UHGV virus genome: UHGV-0247665
Strand: one strand, 5' to 3'
Length of the DNA: 25,422 nucleotides
From: a virus
The stretch's first letter is position 1. Each line of letters starts with the position of its first letter. The position numbers were made by a program, and so were the translations under genes. Of the stretch, positions 1-23,892 are shown piece after piece. The notes under the pieces were generated by a model. That model was not told the origin of the DNA, did not search any database, and worked only from the letters and a program-made list of their open reading frames with translations.

Positions 1-1443
1 TCCATCAAATGATGCATCTGAATACGTATATACTGATTCACTGCCAGCAATTTTAAACTGTTTAACTGAAGTTATTCTCATCGACTTTTTATGTTTAAAT
101 GTCACTGAGCTTTCAGTATTACTTACAAGATCAATCTGAGGGCTATTCCTTATCGCGATTCCTGACTGTACATAAACGTTATTAAAGTGCGTTTTTTCAG
201 GATTTCCCTTCATTGAAAGGCTCCCGTCATTTTCTGTCAGTAGTAGTCCTTTTACCCTCCAATAGCCGACAATCTGTACGTTATCAATAACTGAATCACA
301 GCTATCGTATACATGCAACCCTATATCCCAGTCATCACCCAATGAATAAGAATCAGGGTTATTGTATCCTTCAATACCATTTTTACTTACCATTATTCTC
401 AGGTTGCGTAACTGTGATGCCCTGTTGATACTAACAGCTACGCTCATGGCTTTTGGTGTAGCAGGAGTAACACCTACAGAATCTTCATTTGTAAACTCAG
501 TGAACTTACAAGATATCCCTTCAACAATTTTAACTGGTCTTTCATTAGAGATGTTAAAAAAATATTTGTTTTTTTCTCCATCACCAGTAAATACAAGATG
601 GGTTCCTTTACTCCAACTTTTTAATAATCTTTCAGGCGCTGGTCTATATGTATCCCAATAATCAATGCCATCACCAATTAAAGACACTCCAGGAGGCACA
701 TCTATGTTCTTAGAAATCATCCATTTACCTGCAGGTATTCTAACGACACTTGCACCAGAATTTATCGCATTAATTAACCATTCAGACGCATCAACTTCAA
801 AATTTAATGCAGCATATCTTTGCTCAAACGGAACAAAATCAAGAGCGTTAACGTTATCCCGCATCTTATCCTGGAACGTTCGGTATACTGCTCCAGAACC
901 ATACTGAATAAACCAACCAAAACCACCAACAACTCCGGCGATTGCAGCATCAACATAATTGCGCATTGATCGATTATTTACAGCATCCTGCTCAAGTGAT
1001 GGATCTGCAAGGTTAGAAATTTTGTTTTGCTTTGCATCGTAATATTTTGCAAGCAAAGATGGTTTCATCAATGCACGTCTGAACCATCCAAAACATTGCT
1101 GGATCAGCATCGTCAGATAGTCAAAGGCATCTTCATGCACCTCGGGGAAAAATTTTCCCTGATTACGAAGATCAGTCTCCTGCACCACATCAAGCACACG
1201 ATCTATCGTAATTCGCCATCCAGCAGCAAGCGGCGACGGAAGAACAACAGAACCGCCACTATAAGTGCCCGCCCCTGTTACCGTATAACCGGTATCCAGA
1301 ACCAATTCTGTTACGTTCCCGTTCAGGTCAGACACCTGAACAACCAGGTCGGATTTTTTGAAAATACGGAAGGTATACGGAAATGATGTCGTAGCTCCGT
1401 TACCTGTGTATTCGTTGTGGTCAACTTCGGTTGAGACCGTCAT
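1..1443 (-). CDS. Tailspike / tail fibre protein, N-terminal 481 codons (3' end lies beyond the window start)
   Basis: ATG at 1443 (minus) with GGAG 7 nt upstream. My own minus-strand translation is open from 1443 to position 1; it is absent from the ORF track only because no stop falls inside the window. N-terminus MTVSTEVDHNEYTGNGATTSFPYTFRIFKKSDLVVQV... has the architecture of the T7 gp17-type N-terminal tail-attachment domain. A later segment (ALDFVPFEQRYAALNFEVDASEWLINAINSGASVVRIPAGKW) resembles the start of beta-helix depolymerase domains. GC content drops 3' of roughly nt 900. Confidence 0.8.
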   Translation of the reverse strand, partial: MTVSTEVDHNEYTGNGATTSFPYTFRIFKKSDLVVQVSDLNGNVTELVLDTGYTVTGAGTYSGGSVVLPSPLAAGWRITIDRVLDVVQETDLRNQGKFFPEVHEDAFDYLTMLIQQCFGWFRRALMKPSLLAKYYDAKQNKISNLADPSLEQDAVNNRSMRNYVDAAIAGVVGGFGWFIQYGSGAVYRTFQDKMRDNVNALDFVPFEQRYAALNFEVDASEWLINAINSGASVVRIPAGKWMISKNIDVPPGVSLIGDGIDYWDTYRPAPERLLKSWSKGTHLVFTGDGEKNKYFFNISNERPVKIVEGISCKFTEFTNEDSVGVTPATPKAMSVAVSINRASQLRNLRIMVSKNGIEGYNNPDSYSLGDDWDIGLHVYDSCDSVIDNVQIVGYWRVKGLLLTENDGSLSMKGNPEKTHFNNVYVQSGIAIRNSPQIDLVSNTESSVTFKHKKSMRITSVKQFKIAGSESVYTYSDASFDG

Positions 1444-2976: not shown

Positions 2977-3093
2977 GAAAGTTGATTTGTAACATTTTAG
3001 TTTGTAGTTACCGTGATGGTTTTGCTGCAGAAAGTTAACTAGTCAAAATCACACCGTATGTAAGTCACGTCTGTTCCCGTATGGGAGGATGAT

Positions 3094-3312
3094 ATGTTTA
3101 AATTTGATATGCAACTCAACCAAAACTATGCCTCTTTTTACCATCCAGAAACTGGTAAAGCTGTTTTCGTTGACTCTTTCGATAATGAAGAATTTGATAT
3201 CAGAATTGGGACCCTACGCCAAAGTAAGCATGTTGCTACTGTACGTGCATCCAATGATGATGAATTAAATCAAAAAATAAGTGAGGCGACCTCCCGTTAT
3301 CTATGTCTATAA
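3094..3312 (+). CDS. Hypothetical protein (72 aa), first gene of an AT-rich two-gene cassette
   Basis: ORF track 3094..3312; strong SD GGGAGG 5 nt before the ATG. Local GC is well below the flanking phage DNA. No recognisable family. Confidence 0.6.
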   Translation: MFKFDMQLNQNYASFYHPETGKAVFVDSFDNEEFDIRIGTLRQSKHVATVRASNDDELNQKISEATSRYLCL

Positions 3313-3680
3313 CAGAACAACAACTCATTGATCTTGAGGATGAGATTAACGAGATCTTGCAAGAAGATGCGGCAAGAATTCACTTTTCATTTCACGCAGC
3401 ATATGAACGCCTGAACGACGAGAGGAACAAACCGCCAATTACTCTTGCTGAGCTTGAAGATGTGTTTAAATCGTTTATATCTGCACATCTGCAGACTGTT
3501 TTGGATTTTGCTGAAGGTACAACTTTCACCATAAAGTGCAACAAAAGCGCCCTTCATTTTCCTTGCGCCATTGTACACGAAAGAGAGTTTGGGAAAACGT
3601 GGGTTATCCAAAACGTCATTACAGCCATGAGGAAAGTGGGATTCAAGTCTAAAGATTCTATTATCCTCGAAGTTAATTAA
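3303..3680 (+). CDS. Hypothetical acidic protein (125 aa), second gene of the cassette, translationally coupled
   Basis: ORF track 3303..3680. Its ATG at 3303 overlaps the upstream stop at 3310-3312 (ATGTCTATAA) with no independent SD in range. Followed directly by a terminator. Confidence 0.65.
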   Translation: MSITEQQLIDLEDEINEILQEDAARIHFSFHAAYERLNDERNKPPITLAELEDVFKSFISAHLQTVLDFAEGTTFTIKCNKSALHFPCAIVHEREFGKTWVIQNVITAMRKVGFKSKDSIILEVN

Positions 3681-3701
3681 GCCCGCACTGAGGGCTTTTT
3701 T
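3679..3701 (+). terminator. Intrinsic terminator (AAGCCC-gcactga-GGGCTT then TTTT)
   Basis: 6-bp stem with a 7-nt loop and a U-run immediately after the TAA at 3678-3680. Confidence 0.6.
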
Positions 3702-3773
3702 ATGGACGAAACAAAAGTCAGTGCTACACTCATTGACGCCACATTGAGGTGGCTTATAGATGGAAATTTCACA

Positions 3774-3935
3774 ATGAAAAAAGCATTTGCTGCACTGTTC
3801 GTTTTGTTGTCTCTGGTAGCTTCAACTCAGGCCTTTGCCGGTCGTTGTCAGCACGACAGCGACACTGCTGCTGACGGCTCCCGCTGCGGTGGGCGTTCTG
3901 CGGATTCCCGCCCGGGTGGCGGTGGCATTCGTTAA
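3774..3935 (+). CDS. Small secreted protein (53 aa precursor; Sec-type signal peptide, about 31-aa Gly/Arg-rich mature part with two Cys)
   Basis: Internal ATG of ORF track 3702..3935. MKKAFAALFVLLSLVASTQAFA is a canonical signal peptide with an AxA cleavage motif; the mature part is GRCQHDSDTAADGSRCGGRSADSRPGGGGIR. Possible promoter TTGACG (3733-3738) and TATAGA (3755-3760). The SD is weak. Confidence 0.5.
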   Translation: MKKAFAALFVLLSLVASTQAFAGRCQHDSDTAADGSRCGGRSADSRPGGGGIR

Positions 3936-3958
3936 AAACAAGGCCGCGAAAGCGGCCT
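3931..3958 (-). terminator. Intrinsic terminator for the minus-strand lipoprotein gene (7-bp GC stem with GNRA-type loop, U-run on the minus strand)
   Basis: AGGCCGC-GAAA-GCGGCCT at 3941-3958. On the minus strand it is followed by TTGTTTTTAAC. It sits between the convergent genes ending at 3935 (+) and 3967 (-). Confidence 0.55.
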
Positions 3959-3970
3959 GTGACATGTCAC
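3959..3970. repeat. 12-bp perfect palindrome GTGACATGTCAC (copy 1)
   Basis: Exact match; contains the TGA stop of the lipoprotein gene. Confidence 0.6.
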
Positions 3971-4347
3971 GCAACGCAATTATTACCGCGCCATGTAACA
4001 TTTTTAATAATCTTATCAGCACCAAACTCAACGTAAACAGAGCAACTGAAATGGAGTGTATAACCGCCATCAGTTGTTGCGTATGTGTTTGAATATATAG
4101 TATTACCAATTAGATTAGACGTAGTATTATACGTTGTGGTTTGTGGTACGTTATAACTACCAGAGCTTGAGTAAACATACACTCTGTTTCCATCTGGAGA
4201 TGTAAGCTCTCCCTGAGGATACCCCCACTGCTGAACCATTGCGTCTATACTCTGCCCGCGCCACGTAAGCATATTTCTTTCAAACTGTGCAGCTGACTGG
4301 CATCCAACGAGAAGCATAAATCCAAAAATCAAAAATACTTTTCTCAT
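3967..4347 (-). CDS. Outer-membrane lipoprotein (126 aa); candidate lysogenic-conversion or superinfection-exclusion protein
   Basis: In frame within ORF track 3967..4383. The ATG at 4347 is preceded by GGGGG with a 5-nt spacer. N-terminus MRKVFLIFGFMLLVGCQSA carries a lipobox (LLVGC). The mature part is Ser/Thr/Asn/Tyr-rich. The stop codon lies inside the GTGACATGTCAC palindrome. Confidence 0.75.
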   Translation of the reverse strand: MRKVFLIFGFMLLVGCQSAAQFERNMLTWRGQSIDAMVQQWGYPQGELTSPDGNRVYVYSSSGSYNVPQTTTYNTTSNLIGNTIYSNTYATTDGGYTLHFSCSVYVEFGADKIIKNVTWRGNNCVA

Positions 4348-4432
4348 AATTACCCCTATCATGGAAAAACAGCACCAATCCACAAATTAACTAGTTATTT
4401 TATTATTCTTCCGAACAATACAATTCCGAATA

Positions 4433-4555
4433 CTACAAAGCCGAACCATGCCGCTGCACGCAACAGAGATTCCAATTGAAACCCATTTTTATCAAAATGT
4501 ATGAATAGCATAAAAACGCTGCACATATTAGTACAATAAAAGTTATTTGAACCAT
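4433..4555 (-). CDS. Small hydrophobic membrane peptide (about 40 aa), not in the ORF track
   Basis: Tandem ATGs at 4558 and 4555 (minus) lie 2 and 5 nt after the SD AAAGGAG, which itself directly follows the TAA of the 824-aa gene. Reading frame MMVQITFIVLICAAFLCYSYILIKMGFNWNLCCVQRHGSAL*. It is in a different frame from ORF-track entry 4395..4583, which lacks an SD. Confidence 0.45.
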   Translation of the reverse strand: MVQITFIVLICAAFLCYSYILIKMGFNWNLCCVQRHGSAL

Positions 4556-4566
4556 CATATCTCCTT

Positions 4567-7041
4567 TTATTGCGGAGTGACATCCTGTGGTCGCCACCAG
4601 TATGTCTGGTTAAACTCTTTCTTCGAACGTTGCTCCATTTTACGCAAATAGCCTGGTGAAAAATACTCCTGCATCTGGTTAAAGATCATGTGATCGAGAG
4701 CCGCCTTCAAGTACCAGAGATTCGCACCAGGCATCAAACCTTTCCCCAGCTTCACCAGATCACCACCAGTCTGCTCACTCTTCCCTTCCACAGCATTTAA
4801 CGGTATGCCCTGAGCAATCTTCACTACGTCATCAACCAGACCAGCTACCGGGCCAAGCATCGACGCCAGCGCGCCGCTTCCGTACCTAGTGTGATCTGAC
4901 AATAAAAAGTCACCGTAAAGGCCAAGACCACCACCTTTCAGTAGAGCACCAAGCCAGAATTTTGCGGCATCTTCTCCTGTCATCTCTCGAGGATTACGAC
5001 CAGACGCAAGGTCGTTAAGTTGCTGCGACAAAGCGCCAAGAATGGTCGTACTGGCAATAAACGTCGCAATATATGCCGCACGCCCACCAGCAGACGGCAT
5101 ACCCATAGCGCGTGACCAGTGACGCATAACAACCGAGATAGGGAACGATTTAAACAGGAAAACACTTCTCGTTAATTCACCTTTCCATGTTCCACGCTGA
5201 ATACCAGAACCGGTTATCAGTTGCTCACGTGCTCCCGGTGTAATAACAGCCATATCAACTTCTTCAGTTACGGCACCGAGCAGTTTACGCATTGCCTCAA
5301 ATTTCACGCGTTCAGGCTCACCAAGATGTTTAACTGCTGAATCAGAGATACGCATAATGCTTTCCGGTGTCAGCATCGTATTATTACCGTTCCCCCAGTC
5401 CTCCTGTTTCGCCAGCTTCCATACGCTCCAGTCTGTGTCAGTAATCCCTTTGCTTTTCAGGATACGAAAATCAGAGTCATCGAGGCTACGAAGGTCTGGT
5501 GTCCGTGACACTACTTCTCCCAGGCTTCCCATCATGGTTACGCCATAGGCGCGCTTGTGCGCATCTGACCATGCTGTAAGCCCACTGGCACGCATTACCG
5601 CCGTTGCCGCCCAACGAGACACTGACGGCCCCATATTATCCATCGCCCAGCGGTTAACGCTGCCAAGTAGAGATTCCATCGCCAGACCAGCGCGGCGCGC
5701 CCGCGCAAGTTCTGTACGGTTCGTTGGGTCCATAGCTTCAAGCTGGTTGCGGAATAACTGGTTCATTGGAAGGTTGGTAACCTTCGCAGACAGATACATG
5801 GTTCCAAGATCAGAGAACGATGACAGCAACGCGGATCCGAGTCTGCTGGCAACCAGCCAGTTGCGGATATTGTCAGACCATCGCGCGATGTGCGGATTCG
5901 CTACAGGCTGTGTCTTTCCGGAAATAAAGTTGTACAGATTCTCTGTGTTGTTCGCCAGCCGCTCGACTTTACCGGTTTTACTCGGGTTAGCTGTTGCCGT
6001 TTCTGCCTTCACCTGATCAAGAAGAGAGCGGAAAACATGATCGGGGTTTGGGCCATATGTTTCCACCAGTGCAATATCTTTACTGATACCTTCCAGGTGA
6101 CCGACCATGATTTCCCATAGAGAGCGATCGCCATAAAGTTGCTGATATTGCAGATAGGAATCTGCATCTTTGAAATGTATCTGTCGTGATGCATTACCAC
6201 GGTTAGCACGTGCGCCGGAAATTCGCATTCCGGTATCAGTAAGCTTATTCAGCCCACCAGTAGCGATCGTGTTATAAGCCTCTCCAAGAAATGAAGACAA
6301 CTCGGCATCGTTCATCAGTTGTCCATCGGCTCGGATATAATATTTGCGATCCAGCTTACCTATAACATCGCTAACCCACTTATCCTTTGATACTGCCCCA
6401 ACCTTTTCCATAGAATGATGTTGAGGGATCCCCCAGTTTTCGAGATAGCCAATGTCCCCACCAGCATCATTAAACCGGCGGCGCAGCAGCTCTGTAACTT
6501 CTCTCCACGCCTTAGCACCGTTTCTTGCTTTAGCATTGCCAGTATTTTGCCCCCGCATTTCATATACCAGGTCACGTACGCCCGCTTCATCTTCAAACAG
6601 ACCAAAAAAGCGAGGATCAACTGCTTCGAATGCCTCCTGCAATTGACTCAATGCATAATCACGGGTGGCTTTTGTTCTGGATTCAACAGAGAGGAAATTA
6701 GATTTACCGTCTGCATTAAAAGCTATAGTACGGTTAAGAGCGCCAAGTTTCCCATCAGCCCCTTGATAGCTATTGATAAATTTATCCAATCTCTGACGCG
6801 CGGCTATAGTGAGAGCCACACGACGTTTCTTTAATGCCGCTTCTCGCTGTAATTCTTCAGATGCCAATTGTGCTGCTCGATATAGCCGCTCTGATTCGGA
6901 AAGTTGTCGCCACGACATAGGGTCATCACGAGCAATGGAGCGCATATTTCGATAAATGCGGTCTTCAATGTTCTGTATTTCTCGCGCCGTTAACATGCGC
7001 TGCGCCGCCTGCTGAACCGCTTGTATACATTCCTGTCTCAT
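4567..7041 (-). CDS. Internal virion / ejection protein (824 aa)
   Basis: ORF track. Last large gene of the minus-strand core-protein block, with a Gly-rich hydrophobic C-terminal region typical of membrane-inserting ejection proteins. Functional analogue of T7 gp14-16 by position and size only. Confidence 0.75.
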   Translation of the reverse strand: MRQECIQAVQQAAQRMLTAREIQNIEDRIYRNMRSIARDDPMSWRQLSESERLYRAAQLASEELQREAALKKRRVALTIAARQRLDKFINSYQGADGKLGALNRTIAFNADGKSNFLSVESRTKATRDYALSQLQEAFEAVDPRFFGLFEDEAGVRDLVYEMRGQNTGNAKARNGAKAWREVTELLRRRFNDAGGDIGYLENWGIPQHHSMEKVGAVSKDKWVSDVIGKLDRKYYIRADGQLMNDAELSSFLGEAYNTIATGGLNKLTDTGMRISGARANRGNASRQIHFKDADSYLQYQQLYGDRSLWEIMVGHLEGISKDIALVETYGPNPDHVFRSLLDQVKAETATANPSKTGKVERLANNTENLYNFISGKTQPVANPHIARWSDNIRNWLVASRLGSALLSSFSDLGTMYLSAKVTNLPMNQLFRNQLEAMDPTNRTELARARRAGLAMESLLGSVNRWAMDNMGPSVSRWAATAVMRASGLTAWSDAHKRAYGVTMMGSLGEVVSRTPDLRSLDDSDFRILKSKGITDTDWSVWKLAKQEDWGNGNNTMLTPESIMRISDSAVKHLGEPERVKFEAMRKLLGAVTEEVDMAVITPGAREQLITGSGIQRGTWKGELTRSVFLFKSFPISVVMRHWSRAMGMPSAGGRAAYIATFIASTTILGALSQQLNDLASGRNPREMTGEDAAKFWLGALLKGGGLGLYGDFLLSDHTRYGSGALASMLGPVAGLVDDVVKIAQGIPLNAVEGKSEQTGGDLVKLGKGLMPGANLWYLKAALDHMIFNQMQEYFSPGYLRKMEQRSKKEFNQTYWWRPQDVTPQ

Positions 7042-18362: not shown

Positions 18363-18655
18363 TCCTGTTCACTGGCCTCTTTGGCCATCTTCAAATACTG
18401 TTCAGGGCAATGCGCCATAACGCGCTGAAACAGTTCCAGCGCCAGATTGCGTTGCCCCTCATTAAATGCCATTGCCATAGCATCCATCGGAGAGATAGCG
18501 GAAAACACCCGGCCTTTCTCCAGCACCGACCAGACAACGCGACGCCCCTGTTCACTGCTCATGACAAAGCAAATGTCATCAATTTCACGCTGTGCCATGT
18601 CACGTTGCTTACGGGCGTTTTCTTCTTTCAGTTGATCGTCTTCGTAATCTGTCAT
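18359..18655 (-). CDS. Hypothetical head-morphogenesis protein (98 aa)
   Basis: ORF track. 4-nt overlaps with both the portal stop and the scaffold start. Confidence 0.55.
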   Translation of the reverse strand: MTDYEDDQLKEENARKQRDMAQREIDDICFVMSSEQGRRVVWSVLEKGRVFSAISPMDAMAMAFNEGQRNLALELFQRVMAHCPEQYLKMAKEASEQE

Positions 18656-20331: not shown

Positions 20332-20345
20332 TTCAATGACTCCGG

Positions 20346-20552
20346 TTACTGACCAAGCAGCGTTTTACCGCTGGTATTAGCGGTTGATGTGTCGCCCTGA
20401 GAACCGGTAAGCAGCGTAGAACTACGACCAGCAGCAGCGCGACGGCGACGTGTTTCTTCGTCGCGGGCATCAACAACGGCGGCATCCTGCTCCTGTGGTG
20501 CTGCCTGAACTTCTGGTGTTGCAGGCACTGACGGTGAGCTACCCATGCACAT
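20346..20552 (-). CDS. Small hypothetical protein (68 aa), low complexity
   Basis: ORF track. Its start context CGGAGTCATTGAT-ATG is near-identical to the portal context CGGAGTCATTGAA-ATG. The overlapping 79-aa alternative frame is rejected. Confidence 0.5.
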   Translation of the reverse strand: MCMGSSPSVPATPEVQAAPQEQDAAVVDARDEETRRRRAAAGRSSTLLTGSQGDTSTANTSGKTLLGQ

Positions 20553-20642
20553 ATCAATGACTCCGTACGCAATTAAATTATCACCAATTTAACCACATAT
20601 GATTTATTTATCGTAGATAGTTGACATTTAACGCATGAATTA

Positions 20643-20657
20643 TTACCTTTCAGGTAA
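20643..20657. promoter_or_regulatory. TTACC-N5-GGTAA palindromic motif copy (ATTACC-tttca-GGTAAG)
   Basis: Intergenic, between the 68-aa/portal gene start and the tRNA; a TTGACA hexamer lies at 20621-20626. Confidence 0.5.
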
Positions 20658-20979
20658 GTAAAGTGTTCATTCCGGTTATTAACCTGACTGGCTTATCGTT
20701 AAATTGAACAGGTGGAGTGAGCTTTTATTTTGAGCAGTACGGCGTATGGCACATGCGCCGATAGCGGTCTGGATACGTTTAAGGGGCACCCTCCCTTGCT
20801 CGGGCAAACGAACCAGGTAGCCGGAATGTGCAAGTCGAGCGGTTTTATTCCGCGCACGGGGATTCACCATCCCGGCGATTCGGTGTGACGCCTCGGAAGA
20901 GACGAGGGTACAACGATGAGAGCATTTATGGAGCCGCGACAAAGTGTGGCGCCTTAACAGGCTAAGTGCTCTCAGCGTT

Positions 20980-21056
20980 GTGGCATTAGCTCAGTTGGAC
21001 AGAGCAACCGCCTTCTAAGCGGTTGGTCGCAGGTTCGAATCCTGCATGCCACGCCA
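20980..21056 (+). tRNA. tRNA-Arg (anticodon UCU), 77 nt with encoded CCA
   Basis: Folded by hand: 7-bp acceptor stem GTGGCAT/ATGCCAC, D-arm, anticodon stem ACCGC/GCGGT with loop CTTCTAA (U33, anticodon TCT, A37), T-arm GCAGG-TTCGAAT-CCTGC, discriminator G, CCA. Close to the E. coli argU-type tRNA. Confidence 0.92.
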
Positions 21057-21099
21057 GAATCACGCCTAAGGACCGTGATGCCAGAAGTTCCAGGTGCTT

Positions 21100-21141
21100 G
21101 GCGGTGATGGTTTCCCTTGAAGGACTATCACCGCCCTTTTT
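21100..21141 (+). terminator. Intrinsic terminator downstream of the tRNA (9-bp stem GGCGGTGAT/ATCACCGCC, 18-nt loop, CTTTTT)
   Basis: Inverted repeat at 21100-21108 and 21127-21135 followed by a T-run. Confidence 0.5.
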
Positions 21142-21219
21142 ACAGCAGGACGCCATTGCGATGACTTCATGCTGTAAACCCGTACAGCCACGGAAGGCAT
21201 AACTCATTGCTTCCAGTTC

Positions 21220-21243
21220 GCCCGGTTCGCCGGGCATTTTTTT
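21220..21243 (+). terminator. Terminator-like hairpin (GCCCGG-TTCG-CCGGGC then ATTTTTTT) immediately upstream of the 118-aa gene SD
   Basis: 6-bp GC stem with a UUCG tetraloop and a 7-T run; the downstream SD AAGGTGA begins at 21244. Confidence 0.45.
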
Positions 21244-21254
21244 AAGGTGAGATT

Positions 21255-21611
21255 ATGAACGACCAGCAAATCGAAAAAGAAATCGTTGAGAAAGGCAAAA
21301 CCGCTCCGCGAGTTACGCCTCAATATATCGAAAGCATCATTCTTGAAGAGCATTTCTTTACTGCTTATGACGGCATTCGTGCTGCCAATATGGGCGTTGG
21401 CGATACGTGGACAGCGCATAAATCTACAGACCTCCTTACTTTCTGCGTACTGGTGCTGAAGAATGGCTTCACCGTCACCGGAGAGAGTGCCTGTGCAAGC
21501 CCGGAAAACTTTGATGCAGAAATTGGTCGGAAAATTGCCCGGCAGAATGCTGTAAACAAAATCTGGATGCTTGAAGGTTACTTGCTGAAGCAGAAGTTAA
21601 GCGAGCAATAA
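21255..21611 (+). CDS. Small conserved phage protein (118 aa); tentatively N4 gp49 / Sf6 gp66-like family
   Basis: ORF track; SD AAGGTGA. The family assignment is recalled from the motif FCVLVLKNGFTVTGESACASPENFDAEIGRKIA and is unverified. Confidence 0.65.
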   Translation: MNDQQIEKEIVEKGKTAPRVTPQYIESIILEEHFFTAYDGIRAANMGVGDTWTAHKSTDLLTFCVLVLKNGFTVTGESACASPENFDAEIGRKIARQNAVNKIWMLEGYLLKQKLSEQ

Positions 21612-21615
21612 CACC

Positions 21616-21627
21616 GTGACATGTCAC
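21616..21627. repeat. 12-bp perfect palindrome GTGACATGTCAC (copy 2)
   Basis: Exact match; 5 nt after the stop of the 118-aa gene and adjacent to the terminator hairpin. Confidence 0.6.
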
Positions 21628-21631
21628 AAAC

Positions 21632-21659
21632 AGCCAGCTCATAGGCTGGCTTTGTTTTA
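21632..21659 (+). terminator. Intrinsic terminator (AGCCAGC-tcatag-GCTGGCT then TTGTTTTA) between convergent genes
   Basis: 7-bp stem with a T-rich tail on the plus strand; lies between the 118-aa gene stop and the large terminase stop. Confidence 0.55.
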
Positions 21660-21701
21660 TCCTCATCAGAGGATATCAACGACATTATCCCCACCAGCGG
21701 A

Positions 21702-23880: not shown

Positions 23881-23892
23881 GTGACATGTCAC
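23881..23892. repeat. 12-bp perfect palindrome GTGACATGTCAC (copy 3)
   Basis: Exact match; contains the TGA stop of the 115-aa gene, upstream of the terminase operon. Confidence 0.6.

What the first reader, a model, noticed from the sequence alone, without database searches (positions are those of the whole stretch)
3967..4566. Membrane peptide plus lipoprotein appended to the end of the ejection-protein operon
An untracked 40-aa hydrophobic peptide with a strong SD is followed by a lipobox lipoprotein, both directly downstream of the last ejection-protein gene and upstream of a terminator. This is the position of superinfection-exclusion genes such as sieA in P22-like phages, and phage lipoproteins such as Cor or Llp block receptors. 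The pair is therefore a candidate exclusion or lysogenic-conversion unit, but no homology was recognised.
Basis: partly seen in the sequence, partly recalled or inferred. Interest (0 to 1): 0.55.

Follow-up and report, generated by a model that had tools for sequence, protein, structure and literature searches.

The report
Broken membrane-peptide gene plus phage lipoprotein
At the end of the DNA-ejection gene operon of an epsilon15-like E. coli prophage sits a swappable cargo slot that here holds a frameshifted small membrane-protein gene and an intact, conserved outer-membrane lipoprotein of unknown function, most plausibly a block to entry by related phages; this is a reasonable candidate but not a surprising one.

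Summary
The described features are real. On the minus strand, AAGGAG (4566-4561) precedes a 40-codon hydrophobic ORF (4555-4433). A 126-aa lipoprotein gene (4347-3967, lipobox LVGC) and a terminator (3958-3941) follow. All lie directly after the 824-aa homologue of epsilon15 gp17, itself a T7 gp16 (IVP-D) homologue.

The 40-aa peptide is not a gene in its own right. It is the 5' part of a 53-codon two-helix membrane-protein gene that has lost one base at 4494-4498. Intact 52-54-aa homologues occupy the same position in related phages. All 34 complete E. coli genomes carrying this allele have the frameshift.

The lipoprotein is intact and under purifying selection (dN/dS about 0.1). It belongs to phrog_3716 (unknown function) and is modelled with a BamE/BLIP-like fold. 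It stays next to the last internal-virion-protein genes across several very different epsilon15-type phages, in either orientation.

The slot itself is hypervariable and low in GC. It always carries envelope-targeted proteins and is bounded by the gp17 stop codon and a conserved 12-bp palindrome.

An entry-exclusion role, analogous to P22 sieA or T5 Llp, is the best guess (about 0.4) but is untested. No own promoter was found and there is no homology to any known exclusion or defence protein.

The parts
4567..7041 (-). Context: 824-aa internal virion (ejection) protein, homologue of epsilon15 gp17 / phiV10 p20, last gene of the ejection-protein block.
   Evidence: ORF. tblastn to epsilon15 gp17 gives 27.5% identity, E = 2e-89. 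Annotated as a virion structural protein in phiV10. gp17 is the T7 IVP-D homologue in PMC4819975.
4561..4566 (-). Shine-Dalgarno AAGGAG, 5 nt upstream of the ATG at 4555.
   Evidence: Sequence.
4433..4555 (-). 40-codon ORF as it reads today (MVQITFIVLICAAFLCYSYILIKMGFNWNLCCVQRHGSAL*). It has one hydrophobic helix followed by an out-of-frame tail. It is the truncated 5' part of a frameshifted gene.
   Evidence: Hydropathy. Homologues.
4494..4498 (-). Frameshift site (A-TTTT). It is one base short relative to intact homologues, and a fifth T would restore a 53-codon ORF.
   Evidence: DNA alignment A3. Repaired translation. Gapless 65% identity match to P0043. All 34 E. coli genomes carry the short allele.
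4395..4493 (-). Former 3' half of the small gene (FDKNGFQLESLLRAAAWFGFVVFGIVLFGRIIK*, second transmembrane helix). It is now in the -1 frame relative to the start codon.
   Evidence: pN 0.20 against pS 0.78 versus L072 in this frame.
4352..4357 (-). Weak ribosome-binding site AGGGGT, 4 nt upstream of the lipoprotein ATG.
   Evidence: Sequence.
3967..4347 (-). 126-aa lipoprotein gene. It has a signal peptide and lipobox L-V-G-C16 (codon 4302-4300) with Gln at +2. The mature domain of about 110 aa has conserved WGYP, GN-VYVY and GNNC motifs and two further invariant Cys (C102, C124).
3959..3970 (.). Perfect 12-bp palindrome GTGACATGTCAC. It overlaps the lipoprotein stop codon (GCG TGA CATGTCAC) and is the fixed downstream border of the variable slot.
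   Evidence: Three exact copies plus one copy with one mismatch in the window, against 0.07 expected. Found at the same place in epsilon15, phiV10, phiv142-3, the Klebsiella phage and Salmonella prophages.
3933..3958 (-). Intrinsic terminator (7-bp GC-rich stem, loop TTTC, T-run) that ends the late or ejection-protein transcript.
   Evidence: Annotated as a terminator in phiV10.
3774..3935 (+). Context: convergent 53-aa ORF with a signal peptide (MKKAFAALFVLLSLVASTQAFA|GR...), ending at the same terminator.
   Evidence: PGAP WP_000708858.1. phrog_14503 'membrane associated protein', category moron, E = 2e-40.

Best explanation
The region is the cargo slot at the 3' end of the internal-virion (ejection) protein operon of an epsilon15/phiV10-type temperate podovirus (Uetakevirus; identical over window 3900-4700 to E. 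coli phage vB_EcoP_ZX5). In this phage the slot holds two genes.

(1) A small gene for a 53-aa inner-membrane hairpin protein with two transmembrane helices. It has lost one base in a T-run. Its strong ribosome-binding site can therefore only yield a 40-aa one-helix peptide with a nonsense tail. This gene is most likely a recent pseudogene.

(2) An intact gene for a lipoprotein. By inference from the lipobox and from Gln at position +2, the product is exported by Sec, lipidated on Cys16, cleaved by signal peptidase II and sorted by Lol to the inner leaflet of the outer membrane. There it exposes to the periplasm a domain of about 110 residues, probably disulfide-bonded, with a BamE/BLIP-like protein-binding fold.

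In this phage both genes are read as the tail of the late transcript, which stops at the terminator at 3958-3941.

My best guess for the function is that the lipoprotein acts in the envelope as an entry blocker. It would bind either an outer-membrane or periplasmic host component that epsilon15-type phages need after O-antigen binding, or the incoming ejection-protein conduit itself. DNA of superinfecting relatives would then not get in, and progeny would not be wasted on cell debris. This is what P22 SieA, T5 Llp and Cor do.

What is shown: gene anatomy, frameshift, conservation, fold class, synteny and slot variability. What is inferred: cellular location, time of expression and the exclusion function.
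For: Anatomy.

Phage identity and operon:
- Searches identify the phage type.
- Pfam T7_gp14 matches the 179-aa protein.
- gp17 homology is, and gp17 = IVP-D in PMC4819975.

Frameshift:
- Intact homologues P0038, P0039 and P0043 cover both window frames.
- The alignment shows a 1-nt gap.
- The repaired protein is 65% identical to P0043 over 52 aa without gaps.
- pN is about 0.19 against saturated pS in both halves.
- All 34 E. coli genomes carry the short allele.

Lipoprotein:
- phrog_3716.
- Invariant lipobox Cys plus C102 and C124 in 32 sequences.
- dN/dS about 0.1.
- Confident model with a BamE/BLIP/OsmE/T6SS-immunity-like fold.

Linkage to ejection genes across divergent backgrounds:
- 2-11 nt after 824-aa-type gp17 in Salmonella and E. 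coli, and after 921-aa-type gp17 in E. kobei.
- After 946-, 982- and 1127-aa types.
- Between the gp16-like and gp17-like genes in GC-rich phages.
- On the opposite strand, abutting the last big virion-protein gene, which itself follows the lytic-transglycosylase gene, in Burkholderia phage vB_E332. There it cannot be part of that operon.

Moron-like slot:
- GC is 35-44% against 47-60%.
- Alternative cargo is always membrane or envelope proteins.
- Exchange borders lie exactly at the gp17 stop and the palindrome.

Precedent: sieA occupies the equivalent position in P22-like phages, is only about 25% identical among types yet is always there, and targets the ejection proteins.

Weak extra support: an Enterobacter prophage remnant beside guaA retains only about 400 nt of gp17 plus an intact lipoprotein gene.
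Against: - There are no functional data of any kind.
- There is no sequence or fold match to Cor, Llp, SieA, Imm, Sp, Ltp or any PADLOC model.
- No sigma-70-like promoter lies upstream of the lipoprotein gene in the window or in the Salmonella allele. The 2-11-nt gaps and 4-nt overlaps in relatives point to late, lytic-cycle expression. That fits classic prophage-expressed exclusion less well.
- The lipoprotein is 67-79% identical next to gp17 proteins that are only about 27% identical to each other. It therefore does not co-vary with that candidate target.
- Many epsilon15-type phages (epsilon15, phiV10, SPN1S) lack it entirely.
- Distant homologues sit in ordinary bacterial chromosomes and islands, so the fold has non-phage uses.
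Confidence: 0.4

Rival explanations
1. Host-fitness (lysogenic conversion) lipoprotein unrelated to phage entry. The BamE-fold outer-membrane lipoprotein would alter envelope biology of the lysogen, for example outer-membrane assembly, stress signalling or serum resistance as for lambda Bor. The prophage keeps it because it benefits the host.
For: - The fold is closest to BamE and OsmE, which are envelope housekeeping or stress lipoproteins.
- Distant homologues lie in bacterial chromosomes and islands outside phages.
- The gene is kept intact in an Enterobacter prophage remnant beside guaA.
- It is present in prophages of extraintestinal pathogenic strains (APEC O1, IAI39, CE10).
- It has opposite-strand, independent orientation in the Burkholderia phage.
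Against: - No own promoter was detected, and the gene is tightly coupled to late virion genes in most relatives.
- The persistent placement beside ejection-protein genes over large evolutionary distances is not explained by a general fitness factor.
- There is no sequence-level membership of BamE/SmpA_OmlA.
Confidence: 0.22
2. Lytic-cycle helper. The lipoprotein is made late together with virion proteins and acts on the producing cell's envelope. It might modulate lysis or outer-membrane disruption. Alternatively it might neutralise the phage's own periplasm-active ejection proteins (the gp15 homologue carries a lytic transglycosylase domain in relatives), like an immunity protein.
For: - Operon position with 2-11-nt gaps or overlaps, and no promoter.
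- The gene is embedded between gp16-like and gp17-like genes in some phages.
- Fold relatives include enzyme inhibitors and T6SS immunity proteins (BLIP-like, BtiO).
- An SLT domain is present in the neighbouring gp15 homologue of relatives (Pfam SLT in L072/L073; epsilon15 gp15 note).
Against: - Ejection proteins are packaged in the cytoplasm and are not exported in the producer cell, so there is nothing to neutralise in the periplasm.
- A complete lysis cassette (holins, endolysin, Rz-like DUF2514) lies elsewhere in the genome.
- The gene is dispensable, since many relatives lack it.
- It is on the opposite strand in the Burkholderia phage.
Confidence: 0.13
3. The 40-aa peptide is itself the functional product (a new one-helix membrane peptide), or the full 53-aa protein is still made by ribosomal or transcriptional slippage at the T-run. 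In that case peptide and lipoprotein act as a pair.
For: - There is a strong SD with good spacing.
- The frameshifted allele is identical in 34 genomes of diverse lineages without further decay.
- One metagenomic variant has a second, 26-nt deletion that puts the start back in frame with the second helix (P0041/L074).
- Two-helix inner-membrane proteins precede the lipoprotein in two other, unrelated versions (L061 99 aa, L083 109 aa).
Against: - The site (C ATT TTG) is not a canonical X XXY YYZ slippery heptamer (read directly from the sequence).
- The post-frameshift tail has no homologue.
- The uniformity of the 34 copies (at least 98.8% identity) fits recent spread as well as it fits selection.
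- The lipoprotein works without any such partner in Salmonella and Enterobacter prophages.
- Another relative shows a different disruption, a gp17-peptide fusion (P0044).
Confidence: 0.15

Closest known systems
P22 SieA (superinfection exclusion A)
   Same: The gene lies immediately after the last ejection-protein gene and before the antirepressor/tailspike region. It is optional among relatives, highly divergent yet positionally fixed, and envelope-located. SieA blocks the ejection-protein conduit (PMC10883804).
   Different: SieA is a polytopic inner-membrane protein with a cytoplasmic FxRYPxEAxxFNK motif and its own promoter, PsieA. The protein here is an outer-membrane-type lipoprotein with no similarity to SieA, and no promoter was found.
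T5 Llp and lambdoid Cor (receptor-blocking outer-membrane lipoproteins)
   Same: Both are small phage-encoded lipoproteins with a lipobox and conserved cysteines, anchored in the outer membrane and facing the periplasm. The gene sits next to genes for virion proteins that contact the envelope. They protect against superinfection and against loss of progeny on debris (established knowledge, not tested here).
BamE / SmpA_OmlA / BLIP-like fold lipoproteins (BamE, OsmE, BLIP-like proteins, T6SS immunity protein BtiO)
   Different: There is no Pfam SmpA_OmlA hit at E <= 1. hhalign against E. coli BamE aligns only the lipobox, at probability 3%. The protein has extra beta-hairpins and a C-terminal GNNC motif with two invariant cysteines.
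T4 Imm plus Sp (spackle)
   Same: [quoted passage not shown] This has the same architecture as the ancestral peptide-plus-lipoprotein cargo (established knowledge).
   Different: There is no homology. The T4 genes are not adjacent. Here the inner-membrane partner is frameshifted, and it is absent in many relatives.
epsilon15 gp18 and phiV10 p21 (small two-helix membrane proteins)
   Same: They occupy exactly the same slot directly after the gp17 homologue. They are 46-64 aa with two hydrophobic helices and a short basic loop, and are followed by the same palindrome and terminator.
   Different: They belong to different PHROG families (phrog_29212, phrog_7892) and show no significant sequence similarity to the window family. 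Their function is also unknown.
Lambda Bor (prophage lipoprotein, serum resistance)
   Same: It is a prophage-encoded outer-membrane lipoprotein carried as cargo near late genes (established knowledge).
   Different: There is no homology. Bor has its own lysogen-active promoter.

Membership tests
Bacterial lipoprotein (Lgt/LspA substrate) | N-terminal signal peptide with a basic n-region, a hydrophobic h-region and a lipobox [LVI][ASTVI][GAS]C. | tested here: met
   The sequence MRK-VFLIFGFMLLV-GC contains the lipobox L-V-G-C16. The Cys is invariant in 32 homologues, and the preceding G is at least 90% conserved. A weak Pfam LPAM_1 hit was also seen.
Bacterial lipoprotein (Lgt/LspA substrate) | Outer-membrane sorting: no Asp at position +2 after the lipidated Cys (E. 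coli Lol rule). | tested here: met
   Position +2 is Gln in enterobacterial members and Ala in distant ones, and never Asp. The actual localisation was not measured.
phrog_3716 (phage protein family, unknown function) | Significant full-length match to the family profile. | tested here: met
   E = 5e-64, residues 11-126 against profile positions 1-116 of 116.
BamE / SmpA_OmlA (Pfam PF04355) | Sequence match to the family profile. | tested here: not met
   No SmpA_OmlA hit in Pfam at E <= 1. hhalign of alignment A2 against E. coli BamE gives probability 3%, covering the lipobox only.
BamE / SmpA_OmlA (Pfam PF04355) | The alpha-alpha-beta-beta-beta fold. | tested here: met
Cor / Llp receptor-blocking lipoproteins | Homology to Cor or Llp. 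| tested here: not met
Cor / Llp receptor-blocking lipoproteins | Blocks an outer-membrane receptor and excludes phages that use it. | not testable with these tools
   This needs plating, adsorption and DNA-entry assays.
P22 SieA | Polytopic inner-membrane protein with the conserved FxRYPxEAxxFNK motif. | tested here: not met
   Neither product has the motif or the architecture (sequences; motif from PMC10883804).
P22 SieA | Gene located between the last ejection-protein gene and the tailspike gene. | tested here: met
   The window order is gp17-like, slot, Bro-N/antirepressor region. The tail fibre gene lies beyond that in ZX5, phiV10 and relatives.
Moron (independent cargo unit, sensu Juhala/Hendrix) | Present or absent among otherwise similar phages, and of deviant base composition. 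| tested here: met
   The slot content differs among phiV10, phiv142-3, ZX5, epsilon15 and L072 while the flanks match. GC is 35-44% against 47-60%.
Moron (independent cargo unit, sensu Juhala/Hendrix) | Own promoter and own terminator. | tested here: inconclusive
   A terminator is present. No convincing sigma-70-like promoter was found, but consensus scans are insensitive. The opposite-strand copy in the Burkholderia phage must have its own promoter.
o-spanin (Rz1-like) | Small outer-membrane lipoprotein encoded within or next to the i-spanin gene in the lysis cassette. | tested here: not met
   The lysis cassette (holins, endolysin, Rz-like/DUF2514 and Rz1-like) lies elsewhere in related genomes. 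This gene is in the virion-protein operon and folds as a globular 110-residue domain.
Known anti-phage defence systems (PADLOC-DB) | Match to any defence-protein model. | tested here: not met
   There were no hits at E <= 1 for the lipoprotein, for four small peptides of this slot (P0038, phiv142-3 57 aa, phiV10 p21, epsilon15 gp18), for three alternative slot cargo proteins, or for the neighbouring 53-aa secreted ORF.
Small two-helix membrane protein family (P0038/P0039/P0043; phiv142-3-type 57-aa ORF) | Uninterrupted ORF of 52-57 codons encoding helix 1, a basic loop (F-D/N-K-K/N-G-F) and helix 2 (AWFGFVVFG). | tested here: not met
   Both halves are recognisable, but in different frames because of a 1-nt loss at 4494-4498.

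The most novel reading that the evidence does not exclude
The lipoprotein would be the founding member of a new class of exclusion protein for epsilon15-type podoviruses. It would be a BamE-fold decoy anchored in the outer membrane that docks onto the periplasmic part of the incoming ejection-protein channel, or onto BAM or another outer-membrane partner that the channel needs. That would explain why the gene has stayed beside the internal-virion-protein genes in phages whose gp17 proteins are barely alignable. In addition, the slot would be a genuine cassette-exchange site whose fixed border, the palindrome GTGACATGTCAC, also supplies the stop codon of whatever gene is inserted, and which recurs after terL and before terS. 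The palindrome would be a functional protein-binding or recombination element.
Probability: 0.15. Interest if true: 0.6.

Novelty: new variant of a known kind. Interest (0 to 1): 0.35.

Why it matters
If the lipoprotein blocks entry, it would be the first exclusion factor described for the epsilon15/phiV10 group. These phages are used for O157 and Salmonella typing and biocontrol, and are common as prophages in pathogenic E. coli such as APEC O1, IAI39 and CE10. It could also serve as a handle on the unknown post-O-antigen step of infection and on how the T7-gp14/15/16-like ejection proteins cross the envelope.

The practical lesson for annotation is narrower but solid:
- A family of 46-64-aa two-helix membrane proteins directly after gp17 is widely missed by annotation pipelines.
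- In this lineage that gene is a frameshifted remnant, so the peptide should not be treated as an intact partner of the lipoprotein.

Tried and rejected
- Pfam, NCBIfam and PADLOC gave nothing for either product. PHROGs gave only unknown-function families.
- Rfam found no RNA family in 3500-4900.
- I first suspected that the frameshift lay in the A5 run (ATAAAAATG). The DNA alignment and the homologues place it instead in the T-run three codons upstream.
- The PDB profile search gave only a marginal hit to the N-terminal domain of an S. aureus CAP protein.
- The AFDB Foldseek library was unavailable.
- The spanin idea was rejected on gene position and fold.
- I looked for a partner relationship between the 99-aa (L061) and 109-aa (L083) two-helix proteins that precede the lipoprotein elsewhere. 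They show no sequence similarity.
- Promoter scans upstream of the lipoprotein in the window, the Salmonella allele and the Burkholderia phage found nothing convincing.
- The epsilon15 'repressor' sites annotated in GenBank (TTACC-N6-GGTAA type) are not the palindrome seen here.
- The ZX5 paper gives no function or expression data for these ORFs.
- The literature search for Uetakevirus plus lipoprotein found nothing.
Full report
**What the window is.**
Window 3900-4700 is 100% identical to Escherichia phage vB_EcoP_ZX5, genus Uetakevirus, the epsilon15/phiV10 group. The genes of interest are on the minus strand. Upstream lies the internal-virion or ejection-protein block:
- a 179-aa protein that matches Pfam T7_gp14;
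- proteins of 837, 600 and 824 aa that are homologous to epsilon15 gp15, gp16 and gp17.

Hardies et al. identify epsilon15 gp17 as the homologue of T7 internal virion protein D (PMC4819975).

**Checking the observation.**
All the stated features are present.
- The 824-aa gene stops at 4569-4567.
- AAGGAG lies at 4566-4561.
- The ATG at 4555 has 5-nt spacing and opens a 40-codon hydrophobic ORF that ends at 4433.
- After about 85 nt, the ATG at 4347 opens a 126-codon ORF beginning MRKVFLIFGFMLLVGC, with its stop at 3969-3967.
- A GC-rich hairpin with a T-run follows at 3958-3941. It is annotated as a terminator in phiV10.
- The small ORF is not annotated in ZX5 or in any of 34 RefSeq E. coli genomes.
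- Rfam finds no RNA family in this region.

**The peptide is a frameshifted gene.**
I searched with a hypothetical fusion of the two overlapping hydrophobic frames. This returned intact proteins of 54 and 52 aa (P0038, P0039) that cover both halves. An exhaustive search added P0043, 52 aa.

These genes sit directly after the 824-aa gene in related phages (L072, L073). The DNA alignment shows the window is one base short at TACA-TTTTGAT, window 4494-4498.

Restoring a fifth T gives MVQITFIVLICAAFLCYSYIFDKNGFQLESLLRAAAWFGFVVFGIVLFGRIIK. This sequence aligns to P0043 over 52 residues without gaps, at 65% identity and E = 1e-23. It has two hydrophobic helices like its relatives, whereas the ORF as read has one.

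Between the window lineage and L072, non-synonymous change is low (pN about 0.19) and synonymous sites are saturated. This holds in both halves, including the half that is now out of frame. The gene was therefore under selection for most of its history, and the break is recent.

All 34 complete E. coli genomes with this allele carry the short version. They include APEC O1, IAI39 and CE10.

Two other variants show further disruption:
- A metagenomic variant has an extra 26-nt deletion that restores the frame and yields a 44-aa product (P0041/L074).
- Another relative has the second helix fused to the end of gp17 (P0044).

The site is not a canonical slippery heptamer, so I regard programmed frameshifting as unlikely but not excluded.

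**The lipoprotein is real and conserved.**
- It matches phrog_3716, of unknown function, at E = 5e-64.
- It has 37 homologue clusters, mostly Enterobacteriaceae. One Salmonella variant is found on hundreds of contigs.
- In 32 aligned sequences the lipobox Cys16 is invariant. So are W29, G31, G-Y-P (42-44), G53-N54, Y57, Y59, P68, G95, C102 and G-N-N-C (121-124).
- Position +2 is never Asp, which under the E. coli Lol rule predicts outer-membrane sorting. This is an inference.
- dN/dS is about 0.1.
- The AlphaFold model is confident, with mean pLDDT 85.9.
- Foldseek puts BamE chains on top. In the viral library it finds SmpA/OmlA-domain lipoproteins of Pseudomonas phages.
- At sequence level it is not a BamE family member.

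The fold is thus a small periplasmic protein-binding module on a lipid anchor.

**The slot.**
Comparing related phages shows that the stretch between the gp17 stop codon and a 12-bp palindrome is a swappable cargo site. The contents found were:

| Phage or genome | Cargo in the slot |
|---|---|
| phiV10, E. coli VR50 | 46-aa two-helix peptide only |
| epsilon15 | 64-aa two-helix gp18 |
| phiv142-3, ETEC H10407 and others | unannotated GTG-start 57-aa homologue of the window peptide, plus a 98-aa polytopic membrane protein (phrog_3075) |
| L072/L073 | intact 52-54-aa peptide only |
| Salmonella and E. kobei prophages | lipoprotein only, 2-11 nt after gp17 |
| Raoultella prophage | 109-aa two-helix protein and the lipoprotein, with 4-nt overlaps |
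| IMG/VR contig L061 | 99-aa two-helix protein before the lipoprotein |
| Klebsiella phage ST11-OXA245phi3.2 | 39-aa hydrophobic ORF on the opposite strand before the lipoprotein |

Homology between alleles breaks exactly after the gp17 stop and resumes at the palindrome. The slot has 35-44% GC against 47-60% in gp17. All cargo found is targeted to the membrane or envelope.

**Linkage to the ejection genes.**
The lipoprotein gene follows four very different gp17 types: 824 aa; 918-946 aa; 982-1127 aa; and an 846-aa type at 45% identity.

In the GC-rich phages L062-L064 it lies between the gp16-like and gp17-like genes. In Burkholderia phage vB_E332 a 28%-identical homologue, with lipobox and both cysteines, abuts the last big virion-protein gene, which itself follows the lytic-transglycosylase gene, but on the opposite strand.

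What is conserved is therefore the location, not co-transcription. The lipoprotein does not co-vary with gp17: it is 79% identical next to gp17 proteins that are about 27% identical to each other.

More distant homologues occur in non-phage contexts in many phyla and in other accessory regions of phages.

**How it probably works.**
The following steps are inferred, not shown.
- The lipoprotein is exported, lipidated and placed in the outer membrane facing the periplasm.
- In this phage it is transcribed as the tail of the late operon. I found no convincing promoter in front of it here or in the Salmonella allele.

The best functional reading is envelope-level interference with entry of related phages. 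This would mean superinfection exclusion, protection of progeny from debris, or both.

The strongest arguments are positional and comparative:
- P22 sieA occupies the equivalent place. It is optional, highly divergent yet positionally fixed, and acts on the ejection-protein conduit (PMC10883804).
- Phage outer-membrane lipoproteins such as Llp and Cor are known entry blockers (established knowledge).
- The slot carries only envelope proteins.

Against this reading:
- There is no homology to any known exclusion or defence protein.
- There is no evidence of expression in lysogens.
- There is no co-variation with gp17.

I put this reading at about 0.4. The rivals are a host-fitness lipoprotein (0.22), a lytic-cycle helper or immunity-like inhibitor (0.13), and a still-functional peptide acting with the lipoprotein (0.15).

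**Verdict.**
The peptide gene is a frameshifted remnant, so the 'pair' is not an intact unit in this phage.

The lipoprotein family is already catalogued as unknown-function phrog_3716, and the phage is sequenced and published. What is new here:
- the fold assignment;
- the long-range synteny with internal-virion-protein genes;
- the definition of the cargo slot and its palindrome border;
- the recognition of an overlooked small two-helix protein family.

Interest is moderate to low, at 0.35.

Noticed in passing
window 3959-3970, 21616-21627, 23881-23892 (exact); 18592-18603 (one mismatch): The perfect 12-bp palindrome GTGACATGTCAC occurs 3 times exactly and once with one mismatch in 25 kb, against 0.07 expected. 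ZX5 has the same four copies. The exact copies sit at ends of transcription units: after the slot, after terL next to a hairpin, and just before terS. At the slot copy and the pre-terS copy the TGA inside the palindrome is the stop codon of the upstream gene; at the post-terL copy the palindrome lies downstream of the terL stop. Epsilon15 has copies after terL and overlapping the gp18 stop. It is not the TTACC-N6-GGTAA repressor site annotated in epsilon15. It could be an operator, an RNA or termination element, or a recombination boundary.
   Followed up: partly
window 3774-3935 (+): A convergent 53-aa ORF with a clear signal peptide (MKKAFAALFVLLSLVASTQAFA|GRCQHDSD...). It matches phrog_14503 'membrane associated protein' (category moron) and is conserved across different slot alleles (WP_000708858.1). 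It is a third envelope-targeted small protein, sharing the same terminator.
   Followed up: partly
L075:1926-2050 (-) in phiv142-3; L077 and L078 about 1244-1417 (+) in ETEC H10407 and AMSHJX01: A 57-codon GTG-start ORF (VFLIILSVIISGVLLFIDRYKYFLNPQTQAICWFIFVVQGVVLVASLIEGRPLIFTG) is homologous to the window's small protein. It is unannotated in GenBank and RefSeq. It precedes a 98-aa polytopic membrane protein (phrog_3075) that replaces the lipoprotein.
   Followed up: partly
L074:5001-5135 (ENA metagenome scaffold); P0044: Two further rearranged alleles of the small gene were seen. One has a 26-nt deletion that compensates the 1-nt loss and yields a 44-aa in-frame product retaining helix 2. 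The other has helix 2 fused to the C-terminus of the gp17 homologue.
   Followed up: partly
L003:5852-5971 (-), Klebsiella phage ST11-OXA245phi3.2: In the 145-bp gap between gp17 and the lipoprotein there is a 39-aa very hydrophobic ORF on the opposite strand (MKSKMITFFLRLTVLAVFILALNIVIYGIPRIFGMPWIN). It is reminiscent of a type I toxin or a small membrane peptide.
   Followed up: no
L009:3595-4381 (Enterobacter quasihormaechei, next to guaB-guaA): A prophage remnant retains only about 400 nt of the gp17 3' end, an intact 126-aa lipoprotein gene, a mutated palindrome (GTGACATGTTAC) and the terminator. It is flanked by host guaA and an AraC-type regulator/efflux locus. This is possibly domestication of the lipoprotein.
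   Followed up: partly
window 2981-3673 (+): The module between the Bro-N antirepressor gene and the small secreted ORF (72-aa and 125-aa ORFs, no Pfam hit) differs from the 210-aa gene at the same place in E. coli AR_0086 and L074. This is another mosaic cargo spot in the antirepressor region.
   Followed up: no
window 20333-21700: There is about 1.3 kb of small ORFs between the large terminase and portal genes. It includes an opposite-strand 118-aa ORF (21255-21611) that ends 5 nt before a palindrome copy. The equivalent gene in epsilon15 is p50. This looks like a second cargo site bounded by the same palindrome.
   Followed up: no
L058:4001-4377: The lipoprotein match in this IMG/VR contig is 377 nt rather than 378-381 nt, and it gave an aberrant pN of 0.58. 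This suggests an indel or frameshift in that copy.
   Followed up: no
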